DNA of 64,000 bases from a virus (IMGVR_UViG_3300037722_000745:192001-256000); one strand, 5' to 3'. Counted from the stretch's first letter, positions 19,671 through 23,849 are shown. Notes: generated by a model from the sequence alone, not told the origin. Program-made: numbers and translations.

Positions 19671-20144
19671 CTACCGAGAGCGATACACCACTCCGACCTC
19701 ATCCGGATCGAGGTCAGGCGGATCTGGAACTACGTCTTGTGTGCCAGGCCGAACTAGCACCACCCCCCGTTCCCGACGACGACGCCAAGCGGGGTTCTTG
19801 GTTTGGTGGTTCCGTAACCTAAGCCAACCCAAAGCATCCAGAAACAGAATTTTCGGATCCGGGTGTTCCCCAGCCCACTGCTGCTCACCCTCTTCGTTCT
19901 GGATCGTTGCCCGATACCAACCTTGCTCTACCGAATGCTTCAGCTCCCACGAAGCAGGAAGAGTCTGCTTGAGGCGAGCTAGAGCGTCATCCGACGTCCA
20001 CGTGGTTGTTTCTTCGAGCGAAAACAGGAGGGCACCCTCCAGCACTCCCCACCGGCTACACATGGGCGACCAGCACGCCCGCGGAAGAGACGAACTCCGG
20101 GTGTGATGGTAGCACTGTGGCGAGTCATGTCCAGCACTCCCCAC
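19671..20144 (-). CDS. Hypothetical protein (true start probably downstream of the I-E-like repeats)
   Basis: ORF track; the N-terminus is read through repeat DNA. Confidence 0.45.
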
Positions 20145-20213
20145 GCCCGGGTAGTGGGGTGAATCGGATTCCGCCCACCCGGCCGGCCCCCTCCGGCCCT
20201 ACGCTGTGGTCCG

Positions 20214-20558
20214 ATGGGCATTCTACGCGAACGCGTGGTCCGCGGCAGGACCCGCCAAGACCGCGAGCCGCGCGGCTTCCAGCTCACCTCAACCGAGGCC
20301 GCCAACGTCAAGGTTGCCCTGCTCCATTTGCGGGCCCAGCACGGGTGCTGGCGCGAGGTGGCCCGCGTCATGGGTTGCACGAAGAGGGCCCTGGAGAAGG
20401 CCGCAGAGACCCGGCGGCGACCGTCCCCGGGCTTGGCGCTCCACGTGGCCCGAGCGCTGGGCTTGCCCGTGGAGGCGATGCTCACCGGGGCGCGGTCGGA
20501 GCCAGGGAGCTGCCCGATGTGTGGGCGGGCGAGTAGCAGGGCTCAACTGTCTAGGTAG
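20214..20558 (+). CDS. XRE-family HTH protein
   Basis: WREVARVMGCTKRALEKAAE...PSPGLALHVARALGLPVEAML. Confidence 0.7.
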   Translation: MGILRERVVRGRTRQDREPRGFQLTSTEAANVKVALLHLRAQHGCWREVARVMGCTKRALEKAAETRRRPSPGLALHVARALGLPVEAMLTGARSEPGSCPMCGRASSRAQLSR

Positions 20559-20830
20559 CGATGGAAGTTGCTCGGATGAATGTAGAGCCTAGCCAGCCAT
20601 GACCTGAGCACGCTCGGCATGATTCTCGTGTCGTCGTCCTCTTCGATCGGCAACACGAGTTTGATCTCCTCGTACTGTCTGTCTGTGGAGATCTCTCACA
20701 ACGCACTCCTCGCCGTTGATCATGCGCGTTGCAGACGTGACGGTCACGCCGTGCTCACGGCACACTTTCTCGACGAACTCCCGGACCGTAATCGACGGCC
20801 CGAATGGGAATGCAGGCATGACGGCCTATT

Positions 20831-21178
20831 CTAGGCCGATAGTCTCAATTTGCTAGCCGTTGCGTGGATGATCCACGGCGGCGGAACATCGGGTGCCACG
20901 GTTGGCCCCAGCAAATCCACGGCGCCGCCCAATGGGCGAGCCTCCCTGAACTTCTCAAAATAGTGGCTGGGTGCTCTCGGGACGTCTTGCATTGGGTCCT
21001 TGCCCAGCTCGATATTGGCAGCCGCTTGGTTGACAAATGCGCGCTGCCAAGATGCAAGCACGGCGTCCAAAGAAGTTCCCTGTGCCGCGACATCAAACTC
21101 TAGACACTGAGCAACCCACGTGCCTTCTTCAAGAAGGATGACAATGCTCAAGTCCTCAAACTTCCAGCTCTTTTGCAT
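20831..21178 (-). CDS. HicB-like antitoxin
   Basis: EEGTWVAQCLEFDVAAQGTSLDAVL partial RNase H fold pattern. Confidence 0.6.
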   Translation of the reverse strand: MQKSWKFEDLSIVILLEEGTWVAQCLEFDVAAQGTSLDAVLASWQRAFVNQAAANIELGKDPMQDVPRAPSHYFEKFREARPLGGAVDLLGPTVAPDVPPPWIIHATASKLRLSA

Positions 21179-21597
21179 AGTCGCGCGGTTTTCTTGACAA
21201 GAGCGAGAGCGTTCGCCCTAGTGCGTCTGTAATAGTAGGGGCCACGGCGCTCAGCGGCAAGCGCCGCTAGCATGCCGAGACCGTATGCGCAAACCATGCA
21301 CAGCCGCAAAATAAGCGAAAAAGCGCGTGCCCCTGAACATTCTGCGAGTTCTAAGGCTAGCTTGTCGCTCGCTCCAAAAGCACCGATCTCGCCCACTGGG
21401 TTACGGGCTGTCCCGCCCTCGCGGCGGCTTCCGTGATAGCCGCCCGCTCTCCGTCGCTCAGCCTGATCGCGAAGACCGACTTCGCAGCGCCCTTCGGCAA
21501 CGGCGGCCTGCCGATCCTCGCCTTGGGCGGTGACCCAGAGTCAACATTTGTTTAGAGTGTTGTCTAAATTTAGCCCTCGTGGTAATCGACTCTTGGT

Positions 21598-22827
21598 ATG
21601 ACGCCTCCCGGGTTTTCTAATCCTTTCCGTCCTGGGGCAGGTCACCAGCCTCCTTACCTGGCTGGTCGGTCGCGGGAAACTAATGAATTCAAAATCTTAC
21701 TGGATCAGGACGTGATTCTGAACAGTCTGGTCCTGACGGGGCTTCGGGGGACCGGAAAGACAGTCCTGCTAGATACCTTCAAGCCTATCGCGATCTCCTC
21801 AAAGTGGGTGTGGGTGGGAGCGGACCTCTCTGAGTCGACTAGCATCAGTGAAGAACGGATTGTGAAGAGGCTTCTAGCTGACCTCGCGATCGTCACCGCT
21901 AGCATCCAGATCAGCGAACACCAGCGCAAGCAGATCGGCTTCGGTGCTGGCACGACAACGGTCCCAATCTGTCTCGACTATTCCGCGCTTGATGCGGTGT
22001 ACAAGGCCACTCCAGGATTGCCTGCCGATAAGCTGAAAGCCGTACTGCAGCTGGCGTGGTCAGCTCTCAAGCCGCTAGGACACCGAGGGATCGTCTTCGC
22101 CTACGATGAGGCGCAGAACCTCTCAGACCATGCTGCGAAAGAGGAGTTTCCACTGTCGCTCCTCCTCGACGTATTCCAGTCGCTTCAGAAGCATCAGCTC
22201 CCATTCCTGCTTACCCTGGTTGGGCTACCAACCTTGTTTCCGAAGTTGGTGGAGGCGCGCACTTTCGCCGAGCGCATGTTCCGGGTTGTCTTTCTCGACA
22301 GGCTTGGGCGCCAGGATTGTAGGGACGCCATCCTGAAACCAGTCCAAGACGCTCAATGCCCCATCCAACTCGACGACCCGTCCGCCGAACACATCATAGA
22401 CATTTCCGGCTGCTACCCGTACTTCATCCAGTTCATCTGCCGAGAAGTCTATGACGCGTTCCTGCAAGGGCAGACACGGGTACCTGTTGACGAGATAACG
22501 CGAAAGCTCGACAGCGACTTCTTCGCCGGTAGGTGGTCGCGCGTCACCGACAGACAACGCGAGCTTCTCAAAGTAGTAGCCTCTCTGGAAAGCTCCGACG
22601 GCGAATTCATGGTGCAGGAGATCGCAGAGAAATCGAAAGAGCTGACTAAACCATTCAGTCCAAGCCACATCAACCAGATGCTAGTCACTCTCGCGAACAA
22701 CGGCATGATCAACAAGAACAGGCACGGGAAGTACTCCTTCGCAGTGCCTCTTCTTGGCCGCTTCATTCTGCGGCAGGCAACCGCTGACAGAGAGGAGGAC
22801 CCTGGAGGGCAACAGCTGCTCTTCTAG
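21598..22827 (+). CDS. AAA_16-like P-loop ATPase with C-terminal winged helix
   Basis: PPYLAGR, GLRGTGKT, FAYDEAQ, GCYPYFIQ. Confidence 0.8.
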   Translation: MTPPGFSNPFRPGAGHQPPYLAGRSRETNEFKILLDQDVILNSLVLTGLRGTGKTVLLDTFKPIAISSKWVWVGADLSESTSISEERIVKRLLADLAIVTASIQISEHQRKQIGFGAGTTTVPICLDYSALDAVYKATPGLPADKLKAVLQLAWSALKPLGHRGIVFAYDEAQNLSDHAAKEEFPLSLLLDVFQSLQKHQLPFLLTLVGLPTLFPKLVEARTFAERMFRVVFLDRLGRQDCRDAILKPVQDAQCPIQLDDPSAEHIIDISGCYPYFIQFICREVYDAFLQGQTRVPVDEITRKLDSDFFAGRWSRVTDRQRELLKVVASLESSDGEFMVQEIAEKSKELTKPFSPSHINQMLVTLANNGMINKNRHGKYSFAVPLLGRFILRQATADREEDPGGQQLLF

Positions 22828-22852
22828 CCAGGAGCTACGGAATTGAAAGACT

Positions 22853-22949
22853 GGAGGGTGACCCGCGGTTGGACCGCTCAAGGGCTCTACATCCTGATCG
22901 GGCCCGGTGTTGCAGCTCCGGTGGGGTTCGAATCCCTCACCCTCCGCCA
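22853..22949 (+). tRNA. Allo-tRNA-like (8/4) tRNA with CUA (amber) anticodon
   Basis: 8-bp acceptor GGAGGGTG/CACCCTCC, 4-bp T stem, long variable arm, loop CTCTACA (CTA at 22887-22889), G73-CCA. Confidence 0.75.
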
Positions 22950-23257
22950 CCATGATGCGTCTTGCTGCTGGCGTCCGCAAGGATGCTCGCCCGGACCGCC
23001 TCCGCAGCCCCCGTGACGGGCCCCAGCCCCAGCACCGCGAAGAACCGGCGCTTGGTGCCCGTGGTGGCCTCGCTCCACGCGTAGGCCCGGCGCGCCTTGG
23101 GGTGCCCGTCCAGCTCGAACACCTCGACGTCTCCCTCCCAGGCTGTCTCCCCCGTGGGGGCGCGCTCGACTACATGCACAGTCTCGACGTGGCGCGCGGC
23201 GCAGCCGTGAAGGTGCTTGATGGCTTCGAGCAAGGCGTCGGTTCCGGCGGGGTCCAT
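22937..23257 (-). CDS. Hypothetical protein
   Basis: 106-aa ORF inside the TIR element. Confidence 0.6.
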   Translation of the reverse strand: MDPAGTDALLEAIKHLHGCAARHVETVHVVERAPTGETAWEGDVEVFELDGHPKARRAYAWSEATTGTKRRFFAVLGLGPVTGAAEAVRASILADASSKTHHGGGG

Positions 23258-23360
23258 GCCGGAAGCCTAACCCGCCCGGCGGCCGTGCCAAGATCGGGGC
23301 GCCGATCAAATCACCCCACTACCCACGCCCGCGGAAGAGACGCCTGAGAGCCCAGTTCCT

Positions 23361-23849
23361 TCACCTGCGCGGTCCAGCACTCCCCACGCCCGCGGAAGAG
23401 ACGTTGTCTTGCAGCCTCGCCTCGCAGGCTGCTCTGTACACAGCCACGTCTGCTTCCAGCCTATCGAAGCCTGCGTCCGCAACTTTCGCGAGCCATGGAT
23501 ACGTTCGTAGCAGGCGAAGAAACGCGAGCGCCGCACCCGACTCCTCTCCGCGCTTCCACCTTGCGATGGTGCGTGACGGAAGTTGAAACACGCGCTCAAT
23601 ATAGGCGTTGCTGAGCCCACAGGCATCAAGGTAGACCAGCATCGTTGGTATCGATGCCTTCTTTGAGCTATCCAGCGCTTCTTCAATCCTCGAATCGTTT
23701 ACGTCGGCGAAATCACCGCTTTCTCCGCACATTCGGCACCTCAGCTGCTGCATCTTCCACGAAACGGAAGGGCCATATGGGACAGCGATGTTCTCGCATC
23801 GATCGATCGGTTCGAGTTGGGTAGAACCGCATGCTGGGCACTGAGTCAT
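23361..23849 (-). CDS. MqsA-like Zn-ribbon/HTH antitoxin-type protein
   Basis: CPACG...CRMCGE, HTH with TIARWKRGE; C-terminus runs through the I-E-like repeat. Confidence 0.7.
   Translation of the reverse strand: MTQCPACGSTQLEPIDRCENIAVPYGPSVSWKMQQLRCRMCGESGDFADVNDSRIEEALDSSKKASIPTMLVYLDACGLSNAYIERVFQLPSRTIARWKRGEESGAALAFLRLLRTYPWLAKVADAGFDRLEADVAVYRAACEARLQDNVSSAGVGSAGPRR

What the first reader, a model, noticed from the sequence alone, without database searches (positions are those of the whole stretch)
20039..23402. Third repeat family: type I-E-like mini-array broken by a transposase-less cargo element inserted inside a repeat
Seen: a 29-nt repeat with a 32-nt spacer. One repeat is split by a 3.2-kb element with 14-bp TIRs and a 6-bp TSD, carrying HTH, HicB-like, AAA ATPase and amber tRNA genes. 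The array also overlaps the 3' end of the MqsA-like ORF. Inference: this phage has carried arrays for three Cas systems, including host Cascade, and a mobile element used a CRISPR repeat as its target.
Basis: partly seen in the sequence, partly recalled or inferred. Interest (0 to 1): 0.62.

Follow-up and report, generated by a model that had tools for sequence, protein, structure and literature searches.

The report
IS1-type cargo cassette splitting phage repeat
A 3.2-kb mobile cassette that has lost its own transposase and carries an unusual stop-codon-reading tRNA has jumped into the middle of a short repeat cluster in a huge phage; the jump is real and recent, but the repeat cluster only looks like CRISPR, and nothing shows that the cassette aimed at it.

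Summary
A 32-nt sequence occurs three times (20037-20092, 20129-20149 plus 23324-23342, and 23372-23403). The middle copy is split by a 3,174-bp element (20150-23323) with perfect 13-bp inverted ends (GGTAGTGGGGTGA) and an 8-bp target duplication (CACGCCCG). Removing the element in silico restores a 32-mer identical to copy 3.

The element is a transposase-less derivative, a mobile insertion cassette, of a large and divergent IS1-family clade. That clade has GGnnnTG ends, 8-bp duplications and a 275-aa IS1-type DDE transposase. It is found in soil and sediment metagenomes, Myxococcota, Acidobacteriota and other phage contigs. Sister copies share the two end genes and an RHH gene and carry varied cargo.

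Fifteen distinct sister insertions have unrelated target duplications, so targeting of a CRISPR repeat is not supported.

The type I-E / host Cascade reading is also unsupported:
- no Cas6e or Cas7e gene in the 323-kb record;
- no array with this repeat in any collection searched;
- similarity to the E. coli I-E repeat is not significant (p about 0.09);
- no convincing protospacer.

The cluster is CRISPR-like in layout only (about 50%).

The cargo tRNA is a genuine 9/3 (or 8/4) allo-tRNA with a CUA anticodon. The scan noted this same stretch before (e1-5376838, e1-5376840); their follow-ups were withheld.

The parts
20037..20052 (+). Repeat copy 1, first 16 nt (1 mismatch)
   Evidence: half-repeat scan
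20053..20076 (+). 24-nt insert in the exact middle of copy 1; its last 7 nt (CCAGCAC) repeat positions 3-9 of the repeat; it holds a possible ATG start of the downstream gene
   Evidence: no match elsewhere
20077..20092 (+). Repeat copy 1, last 16 nt (0 mismatches)
20093..20128 (+). Spacer 1 (36 nt if the repeat is 32 nt); unique
   Evidence: no match in the record, the fetched loci or viral contigs
20129..20149 (+). Repeat copy 2, left 21 nt; the last 8 nt (20142-20149, CACGCCCG) are the left target duplication
20150..23323 (.). 3,174-bp transposase-less IS1-family cargo cassette (mobile insertion cassette). Perfect 13-bp inverted ends at 20150-20162 and 23311-23323. G+C is 0.70-0.72 in the end modules and 0.57 in the middle
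20214..20558 (+). ORF-A: 114-aa HTH protein with a C-terminal CxxC. It is the conserved end gene of the G+C-rich sister elements
   Evidence: tblastn E 1e-19 to 4e-8 to the same position in L064, L062, L068, L079; phrog_2328 E 1e-3
20589..20819 (-). 76-aa ORF of unknown function; may not be a gene
   Evidence: no family hit; atlas best 0.76
20831..21178 (-). 115-aa HicB-like candidate antitoxin
   Evidence: atlas feature score 0.94-0.95 to HicB clusters, 217-218 of 256 shared features; no Pfam or PDB sequence hit; weak relatives in sister elements L065 and L067
21357..21551 (-). Ribbon-helix-helix-type small gene remnant (GRPPLPKG...IRLS...TQWAR) without a canonical start codon. In sister elements this gene follows the transposase
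   Evidence: E 2e-15 to 1e-7 in L068, L062, L079, L064
21598..22827 (+). 409-aa AAA_16 ATPase, a solitary gene common in (pro)phage contigs
   Evidence: PF13191 37.6 bits; phrog_6841 E 2e-58; 54-67% identical homologs in 18 viral contigs without the cassette's ends
22853..22949 (+). allo-tRNA with a 12-bp acceptor/T branch (9/3 or 8/4), anticodon loop CU-CUA-CA, long variable arm, G73, encoded CCA
   Evidence: Rfam tRNA-Sec 32.9 bits, E 8e-4, below gathering 47; own scan finds 9/3 and 8/4; missed by ARAGORN; definition in PMC5389517
22937..23257 (-). ORF-F: 106-aa hallmark gene of this IS clade, function unknown
   Evidence: 572 homologs, no Pfam; lies next to an inverted end in 48 of 86 fetched loci; AF2 pLDDT 83, alpha-beta4-alpha, no convincing PDB fold
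23324..23342 (+). Repeat copy 2, right 19 nt; the first 8 nt (23324-23331, CACGCCCG) are the right target duplication
23343..23371 (+). Spacer 2 (29 nt if the repeat is 32 nt; 32 nt if it is 29 nt)
   Evidence: one 20-nt exact match in viral contig L149 that does not extend
23372..23403 (+). Repeat copy 3, intact 32 nt; it lies inside the 3' end of the MqsA-like ORF
23361..23849 (-). MqsA-like CxxC...HTH ORF whose last 14 codons are read from copy 3 and spacer 2
19671..20063 (-). Conserved phage gene upstream of groEL; its start region overlaps copy 1
   Evidence: 44% identical homolog in syntenic phage L148, where conservation begins near window 20030

Best explanation
What is shown. A non-autonomous cargo cassette derived from a divergent IS1-family insertion sequence transposed as one 3,174-bp unit into the centre of one copy of a three-copy 32-nt direct repeat in this Cas12j-bearing huge phage. 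The staggered cut produced the 8-bp duplication CACGCCCG. The perfect ends, the perfect duplication and the exact restoration of the repeat point to a recent event.

What is inferred.
- The cassette has no transposase, so it must have been moved in trans by an IS1-type DDE transposase of an autonomous sister copy. That copy was presumably in the host cell, since none is in the 323-kb phage record.
- Compared with autonomous sisters (end, ORF-F, 165-aa gene, transposase, RHH gene, cargo, ORF-A, end), the 165-aa gene and the transposase are replaced by an allo-tRNA(CUA) and an AAA_16 ATPase. A start-less RHH remnant marks the old position.
- Target choice was not sequence-specific. The hit on the repeat is best read as chance, possibly helped by the hairpin apex.
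- The repeat cluster has the layout of a small orphan CRISPR array: identical repeats, unrelated spacers, a hairpin on the minus-strand RNA only, and a degenerate copy at the putative trailer end. Its CRISPR nature is about even odds and no type can be assigned. If it was an array, the insertion plus the 24-nt insert in copy 1 have largely disabled it.
For: Element and junctions: (13-bp perfect ends, 8-bp duplication, exact in-silico restoration). Single copy, with no transposase in the record.

Family:
- ORF-F has 572 homologs, mostly on short contigs.
- 48 of 86 fetched loci carry GGTAGTG... ends.
- Fifteen distinct sister insertions have perfect 8-bp duplications, plus one nested element with a 9-bp duplication.
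- Their 273-282-aa ORFs hit PF03400 DDE_Tnp_IS1 above the gathering score. Seven of seven have NF033558 IS1 as best hit, 50-65 bits, against IS6 at 22-32 bits in the six that hit it.
- IS1 family features are GGnnnTG ends and 8-9-bp repeats (PMC10425158 table 8 and PMC6807381).

Shared end genes and RHH gene. Transposase-less sisters (L135 701 bp; L070/L072 548 bp). Family copies in phage contigs, including nested copies in a complete 73-kb phage (L144).

CRISPR-like layout.
Against: No autonomous copy was found in the phage record, which is 68% complete, and the host is unknown, so trans-mobilisation is inferred. The transposase matches are below NCBIfam's equivalog cut-off of 100 bits, so placement in IS1 rather than a sister family rests on best-hit order plus the ends and the duplication. 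The cassette middle has the phage's own G+C (0.57) while its ends are at 0.70-0.72, so its history is mosaic and could include recombination after insertion.

For the CRISPR-like reading: only three copies; the hairpin energy is no better than shuffles (z = 0.31); no cognate cas genes; no external array; no protospacer; both ends of the cluster overlap coding sequence.
Confidence: 0.75

Rival explanations
1. First reader's reading. The repeats are a type I-E mini-array that the phage uses with host Cascade, and the mobile element specifically targets CRISPR repeats.
For: One unit has the 61-nt period typical of I-E (29 + 32). The minus-strand RNA can form a stem with a tetraloop at positions 12-15 and GGGGA at 18-22, as in the E. 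coli repeat. The phage carries other arrays. Virus-borne mini-arrays that rely on host Cas are known (PMC6858448).
Against: The identical stretch is 32 nt, not 29. Identity to the E. coli I-E repeat is 15/29 on both strands, p = 0.086. No Cas6e or Cas7e in the record. No array with this repeat in any collection searched. The target duplications of sister insertions share no motif.
Confidence: 0.12
2. The 32-mers are not CRISPR-derived. They would be local protein-binding or regulatory repeats, for example operator or iteron-like sites near the MqsA-like regulator gene, or a recombination scar, and they happen to be spaced like an array.
For: Only three copies, confined to one intergenic spot in a variable region that differs in the syntenic phage L148. 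They overlap the ends of both flanking genes. The hairpin is no better than shuffles. No cas partner, external array or protospacer was found.
Against: Identical 32-nt repeats separated by unrelated sequences of similar length are the CRISPR hallmark. Iterons are usually shorter and more numerous. MqsA-type operators lie upstream of the gene, not at its 3' end (general knowledge, not tested). The strand asymmetry of the hairpin (-9.0 against -2.9 kcal/mol) suggests an RNA-level feature.
Confidence: 0.4
3. The whole block, repeat cluster with the cassette already inside, was captured from a bacterial chromosome by recombination. The transposition would then have happened in the host array, not in the phage.
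For: The repeat-bearing flanks have G+C of 0.67-0.70, like the cassette ends (0.70-0.72) and unlike the window (0.57). The locus lies in a variable region between rtcB and the gene next to groEL that holds other genes in phage L148.
Against: The flanks are too short (111 and 80 nt, mostly repeat) for composition to be informative. No bacterial genome with this repeat was found. Family elements are seen inserted directly in other phage contigs with their own duplications.
Confidence: 0.15
4. The cassette is autonomous. One of its own proteins (ORF-A, ORF-F or the ATPase) would be an unrecognised transposase.
For: ORF-A and ORF-F are conserved next to the ends in sister elements, and ORF-F has no known fold.
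Against: Full-length sisters all carry a separate IS1-type DDE transposase. ORF-F is a 100-aa alpha-beta4-alpha protein and ORF-A a 114-aa HTH protein, both too small for a DDE fold. The ATPase occurs alone in many phages without these ends.
Confidence: 0.04

Closest known systems
IS1 family insertion sequences (ISfinder: ends GGnnnTG, 8-9-bp direct repeats, DDE transposase), including longer members with passenger genes
   Same: Ends GGTAGTG fit GGnnnTG. The target duplication is 8 bp (9 bp in one nested sister). Sister copies encode a DDE transposase whose best Pfam and NCBIfam match is IS1.
   Different: The transposase is a single ORF of about 275 aa that scores only 50-65 bits against the IS1 model (cut-off 100). 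The elements are 2.7-6.2 kb, not 0.74-1.18 kb. They carry conserved accessory genes (ORF-F, RHH, ORF-A) plus variable cargo. The copy in this window has no transposase at all.
Mobile insertion cassettes (MIC231 of Bacillus cereus; the qnrD mic elements)
   Same: Inverted repeats of an IS bracket passenger genes, there is no transposase gene, a target-site duplication is present, and mobilisation in trans by the cognate IS transposase is the accepted mechanism (definition in PMC3913671).
   Different: Derived from an IS1-type rather than an IS231 (IS4-family) element. It sits in a huge phage genome. The cargo is an allo-tRNA, an ATPase and a HicB-like gene rather than a peptidase or resistance gene. 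Trans-mobilisation has not been tested here.
Virus-borne mini-CRISPR arrays (Medvedeva et al. 2019, PMC6858448) and the orphan Cas12j units of this same phage
   Same: A few repeats with unique spacers in a viral genome, without adjacent cas genes.
   Different: In the described cases the repeats match host or own arrays and the spacers match related viruses. Here neither a matching array nor a protospacer was found, two of three repeats are interrupted, and no type can be assigned.
allo-tRNAs of Acidobacteria and other bacteria (Mukai et al. 2016/2017, PMC5389517)
   Same: A 12-bp acceptor/T branch in 9/3 or 8/4 form, a long variable arm, G73, a tRNA-Sec-like score, and a neighbourhood of toxin-antitoxin and transposon genes.
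   Different: That paper lists natural 9/3 species for Arg, Leu and UAA codons and made CUA versions by mutation. Here CUA is the natural anticodon. The gene rides on a defined IS1-type cassette inside a phage that uses TAG as an ordinary stop (27% of long ORFs).

Membership tests
IS1 family (as a derivative) | Terminal inverted repeats with GGnnnTG ends | tested here: met
   Both ends are GGTAGTGGGGTGA. Sisters have GGTAGTGGCCGGATTTGA or GGTAGTGTCCTAATTTGA. The feature is cited.
IS1 family (as a derivative) | 8-9-bp target-site duplication | tested here: met
   CACGCCCG on both sides. Fifteen distinct sister insertions have perfect 8-bp duplications and one has 9 bp.
IS1 family (as a derivative) | IS1-type DDE transposase encoded in the element | tested here: not met
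   No transposase in the element or the whole record (tblastn). It is present in sister elements: PF03400 above the gathering score, and NF033558 is the best hit at 50-65 bits, below the cut-off of 100. This copy is therefore a non-autonomous derivative, not an IS.
Mobile insertion cassette (MIC) | IS-type inverted repeats plus a target duplication bracketing passenger genes, with no transposase | tested here: met
   definition in PMC3913671.
Mobile insertion cassette (MIC) | Mobilised in trans by the cognate transposase | not testable with these tools
   Needs a transposition assay. Inferred from autonomous sisters with the same ends.
CRISPR array | Several near-identical direct repeats of 23-47 nt separated by unique spacers of similar length | tested here: inconclusive
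   Three 32-nt copies, two of them interrupted; spacers of 29 and 36 nt with no mutual similarity. This is too few copies to be decisive.
CRISPR array | Cognate cas genes in the genome, or the same repeat in arrays next to cas genes elsewhere | tested here: not met
   No PF08798 or PF09344 in the record, which is 68% complete. The repeat was absent from every collection searched.
CRISPR array | Spacers match foreign elements (protospacers) | tested here: inconclusive
   The first 20 nt of spacer 2 match L149 exactly, but only 23 of 32 nt overall. About 0.1 such hits are expected by chance (my estimate of the collection's size). Spacer 1 has no match.
Type I-E repeat class | 29-nt repeat with sequence similarity to I-E repeats and a stable G+C-rich stem | tested here: not met
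   15/29 identity to the E. coli repeat on either strand, p = 0.086. The identical unit is 32 nt. The stem needs three G-U pairs and a bulge, at -9.0 kcal/mol, z = 0.31.
allo-tRNA | 12-bp acceptor/T branch as 8/4 or 9/3 instead of 7/5, with a tRNA-Sec-like long variable arm | tested here: met
   My own pairing scan finds 9/3 and 8/4 solutions with full pairing. Rfam tRNA-Sec scores 32.9 bits, below the gathering score. Definition.
HicB antitoxin (ORF 20831-21178) | Match to HicB family models | tested here: inconclusive
   No Pfam, NCBIfam or PDB sequence hit. Atlas feature score of 0.94-0.95 to HicB-named clusters. No HicA-like partner was recognised.
MqsA antitoxin (ORF 23361-23849) | CxxC zinc ribbon plus HTH, matching TIGR03830 | tested here: inconclusive
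   TIGR03830 E 1.3e-5, 25 bits against a cut-off of 61.8, covering residues 4-119.

The most novel reading that the evidence does not exclude
This IS1-type clade, with its hallmark ORF-F gene of unknown fold, may be a general shuttle. It would move odd decoding RNAs (allo-tRNA CUA here, tRNA UUA in phage L144, tRNA CGC in L129) and defence genes (GmrSD, AbiEii-like ATPase, Rap1a, TA modules) between soil bacteria and their phages. Its insertion at the apex of the repeat hairpin, the same spot as the 24-nt insert in copy 1, may reflect structure-directed targeting that disables a phage-borne guide array.
Probability: 0.15. Interest if true: 0.7.

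Novelty: new member of a known kind. Interest (0 to 1): 0.42.

Why it matters
The result gives a concrete vehicle for allo-tRNAs. Mukai et al. saw these near transposon and toxin-antitoxin genes but did not define the mobile element. Here a natural amber-reading allo-tRNA sits on an IS1-type cassette with mapped ends.

It also shows that a large, apparently unnamed IS1-type clade with conserved accessory genes carries defence cargo and invades phage genomes, including a Cas12j huge phage.

It corrects an attractive but unsupported story: host Cascade hijacking and a CRISPR-seeking transposon. 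The cassette ends and the sister transposases offer a simple system for testing trans-mobilisation, and the tRNA can be tested for amber suppression.

Tried and rejected
- Host array search. An exact 18-mer of the repeat over 185,579 species genomes gave 48 single hits, all unrelated coding DNA. The 29-mer with up to 3 mismatches in 401 Myxococcota genomes gave none. Two viral-contig scans gave none, or 15 single chance hits. BLAST of a repeat-spacer unit against plasmids and phages gave only chance pieces.
- Other viral records (L148, which is syntenic, plus L143, L144, L146 and L150): no repeat. The MqsA-like gene has no relative in viral contigs.
- Protospacers. One 20-nt hit that does not extend, in an unrelated phage gene; none for spacer 1; no self-match.
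- I-E sequence likeness: rejected as not significant.
- ORF-F function. No hit in Pfam, PHROG, NCBIfam or PADLOC, no PDB sequence hit, Foldseek best E 0.39, VIA best Z 5.6. Function stays unknown.
- HicA identity of the 76-aa ORF: no support.
- An allo-tRNA as a regular passenger of the family: not found. Only this copy gave a 9/3 or 8/4 fold among 84 loci, and Rfam on 11 sister loci found only two ordinary-scoring tRNAs.
- A target motif for the family, including a GGnnnTG-like sequence beside the duplication as seen here: not general.
- Stop-codon recoding by the phage: rejected, since TAG ends 53 of 196 long ORFs.

Full report
**Setting.** The window is bases 192001-256000 of a 323-kb IMG/VR virus record estimated 68% complete. 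It is a huge phage with 42 tRNA genes and a tmRNA gene. groEL lies at 18046-19650 and rtcB at 23972-25375. Two clear 36-nt-repeat arrays lie elsewhere in the window. Earlier notes of this scan assign at least one of them to the phage's own Cas12j; I did not retest that.

**The repeat.** A 21-nt core occurs three times in the window against 0.00 expected from shuffles, and only there in the whole record.
- Copy 3 (23372-23403) is intact.
- Copy 2 is split into 20129-20149 and 23324-23342.
- Copy 1 keeps both 16-nt halves (20037-20052 with one mismatch; 20077-20092 exact), separated by 24 nt.
- The stretch identical between copies 2 and 3 is 32 nt. The unit is therefore 32 + 29 as readily as 29 + 32, and the second spacer is 36 (or 39) nt.
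- The two spacers are unrelated to each other and to the rest of the record.
- Only the minus-strand RNA forms a hairpin: -9.0 against -2.9 kcal/mol. The value is no better than shuffles of this G+C-rich sequence (z = 0.31).
- On the minus strand the degenerate copy would be last, as at the trailer end of arrays.
- The MqsA-like ORF (23361-23849, minus strand) reads through copy 3 and stops inside spacer 2.
- The conserved gene next to groEL starts within or just after copy 1.

**The insertion.** The interrupting DNA runs from 20150 to 23323 (3,174 bp). Its ends are perfect inverted copies of GGTAGTGGGGTGA and it is flanked by CACGCCCG on both sides. Deleting the element and one duplication copy yields a 32-mer identical to copy 3. 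This is a clean, recent transposition footprint. The element is single-copy in the record.

**What the element is.** ORF-F (22937-23257, minus strand) has 572 homologs at up to 79% identity, mostly on very short contigs, as expected of repeated mobile DNA. I fetched 80 metagenome loci and 6 viral loci that encode it.
- Forty-eight loci carry the same kind of end, in two flavours: GGTAGTGGCCGGATTTGA (G+C-rich) and GGTAGTGTCCTAATTTGA.
- Fifteen distinct insertions with both ends have perfect 8-bp duplications, and a nested one has 9 bp.
- Full-length members (2.7-6.2 kb) encode an ORF of 273-282 aa. It hits PF03400 DDE_Tnp_IS1 above the gathering score. In seven of seven cases its best NCBIfam match is IS1 (50-65 bits, below the cut-off of 100), ahead of IS6 at 22-32 bits in the six that hit it.
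- GGnnnTG ends and 8-9-bp duplications are the listed features of the IS1 family (PMC10425158 table 8; PMC6807381).

The G+C-rich members L062, L064, L068, L076 and L079 share an order: end, ORF-F, a 165-aa gene, transposase, a ribbon-helix-helix gene, cargo, ORF-A on the other strand, end. The window's element keeps four of these features:
- ORF-F and ORF-A at the same ends;
- ORF-A homologs at E 1e-19 to 4e-8;
- a start-less remnant of the RHH gene at 21357-21551.

It lacks the 165-aa gene and the transposase. No IS1-type transposase exists anywhere in the record. In their place are the allo-tRNA and an AAA_16 ATPase. That ATPase occurs as a solitary gene in many (pro)phage contigs without these ends.

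The element therefore fits the definition of a mobile insertion cassette: IS ends, a target duplication, passenger genes, no transposase, mobilised in trans (PMC3913671). Other transposase-less members exist: L135 at 701 bp and L070/L072 at 548 bp. Trans-mobilisation here is an inference.

**Target choice.** The duplications of the sister insertions are GGGCGGGG, CCCGCTGG, GACTATTT, GGAATTTC, CTTTTTGA, CGGAATCG, CATTGCCG, TTTTACTG and so on, with no shared motif. One sister (L062) sits in a 22-nt tandem repeat region that is not CRISPR-like. Nothing indicates that the family seeks CRISPR repeats.

Two local details are worth recording but are not significant on their own.
- The 8-bp duplication is centred on the apex of the minus-strand hairpin, and the 24-nt insert of copy 1 lies at the same apex.
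- The repeat reads GGGAGTG right after the duplication, itself a GGnnnTG word. As a result the hybrid repeat at the ORF-F-side junction keeps 25 of 29 repeat positions.

**Is the cluster CRISPR, and is it type I-E?** I found no outside support.
- No Cas6e or Cas7e family match in the record.
- An exact 18-mer scan of one genome for each of 185,579 species gave 48 single hits, all unrelated coding sequence.
- IMG/VR scans gave nothing, or 15 single chance hits.
- 401 Myxococcota genomes gave none at up to 3 mismatches.
- Plasmid and phage BLAST gave chance pieces only.
- Five other viral records gave none. The syntenic phage L148 has different genes at this spot.
- The E. coli I-E repeat (sequence as printed in PMC11434687) shares 15 of 29 positions with either strand, which 8.6% of shuffles reach.
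- The first 20 nt of spacer 2 match one viral contig (L149) exactly, but the match stops there (23 of 32). About 0.1 such hits are expected by chance in a collection of this size; that size is my own estimate.
- Spacer 1 has no match.

I therefore keep the CRISPR-like layout as a description, give a real (former) array about even odds, and reject the assignment to type I-E and host Cascade as unsupported. The repeat was never scanned against metagenome contigs. That is the main gap.

**Cargo.** The tRNA at 22853-22949 has these features:
- Rfam's tRNA-Sec model scores it at 32.9 bits, E 8e-4, below the gathering score.
- The acceptor stem has 9 pairs and the T stem 3 (or 8 and 4).
- The variable arm is long, the discriminator is G73, and CCA is encoded.
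- The anticodon loop is CU-CUA-CA.

This matches the allo-tRNA definition of Mukai et al., who found such genes near toxin-antitoxin and transposon genes in Acidobacteria. For natural 9/3 species they listed anticodons for Arg, Leu and UAA codons (PMC5389517). An amber-reading natural member on a mapped cassette is an addition.

The phage itself uses the standard code, with TAG ending 27% of long ORFs. A strongly expressed suppressor would therefore be costly, and its role is open.

Other family copies carry tRNAs too: tRNA(CGC) between ORF-F and the end in L129, a 93-nt class II tRNA(UAU) near ORF-F in L084, and tRNA(UUA) in a nested element of the complete 73-kb phage L144. No other 9/3 fold was found among 84 loci.

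The 115-aa ORF is HicB-like only by language-model features, and its 76-aa neighbour has no support as a toxin. ORF-F gives a confident alpha-beta4-alpha model (pLDDT 83) without a convincing structural relative.

**Distribution.** ORF-F relatives at 32-53% identity occur in 9 of 301 sampled Myxococcota genomes and 12 of 301 sampled Acidobacteriota genomes. Two of the closer homologs (64-70%) are labelled Polyangiaceae. This hints at a myxobacterial source for the G+C-rich flavour but does not identify the host.

**Verdict.** The structural observation is correct and sharpened. The element is an IS1-type mobile insertion cassette, a new member of a known kind, with an interesting allo-tRNA passenger. 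The I-E / Cascade reading and the CRISPR-targeting reading are not supported.

Noticed in passing
L144:159-6319 (IMGVR_UViG_3300028556_000001, complete 73-kb phage with terminal repeats): Nested family elements. An outer copy (8-bp duplication CACGACCC) contains an inner copy at 1091-4118 (9-bp duplication). The outer copy also carries a 76-nt tRNA with anticodon UUA (ochre-reading) at 4804-4879. Its loop CU-UUA-CA has the same context as the CU-CUA-CA loop in the window.
   Followed up: partly
L129:530-603 and L084:1680-1772: Other family loci hold tRNA genes next to ORF-F. L129 has a tRNA(CGC) between ORF-F and the right end. L084 has a 93-nt class II tRNA(UAU) with G73-CCA, but its left end was not found, so whether it lies inside the element is unproven.
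   Followed up: partly
L092, L106, L118, L128, L135, L138, L068 (metagenome loci): Cargo of sister elements is rich in defence-type genes: GmrSD restriction enzymes (L106, L128), an AAA_21/AbiEii-like ATPase (L118), P63C-domain proteins (L092, L138), Rap1a immunity-like proteins (L092, L135) and a GNAT acetyltransferase (L068).
   Followed up: partly
window 22937-23257 and alignment A1: ORF-F is a family of about 100 aa with over 570 members. It has no Pfam, PHROG or NCBIfam model, and its confident alpha-beta4-alpha model has no clear PDB relative. It always lies beside an end of these IS1-type elements.
   Followed up: partly
window 23713-23913 (minus strand): A 66-aa ORF begins with the RRNYKYRLYPTPEQE motif typical of TnpB N-termini. 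It looks like a short TnpB stub just upstream of the MqsA-like gene, so the rtcB-groEL interval has collected several mobile remnants.
   Followed up: no
window 23311-23342 (minus strand): The hybrid formed by the right cassette end plus the right repeat part still matches 25 of 29 repeat positions. This is because the cassette end GGTAGTGG resembles the repeat's GGGAGTGC, so most of the hairpin could still form at that junction.
   Followed up: no
L062:1-281 and 4058-4368: The sister element in L062 is inserted in a run of degenerate 22-nt tandem repeats (CATCATGGAGGAGGGAC-like), a different kind of repeat region.
   Followed up: partly
L149:3947-3966 (IMGVR_UViG_3300029875_000266): Exact 20-nt match to the first 20 nt of spacer 2 (minus-strand reading), preceded by TTC, inside a 102-aa phage ORF. 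It does not extend and is probably chance.
   Followed up: yes
window 51755-52009: A second 36-nt repeat family (4 copies) differs in sequence from the 7-copy array at 25701-26187. I did not test whether it belongs to a different Cas system.
   Followed up: no
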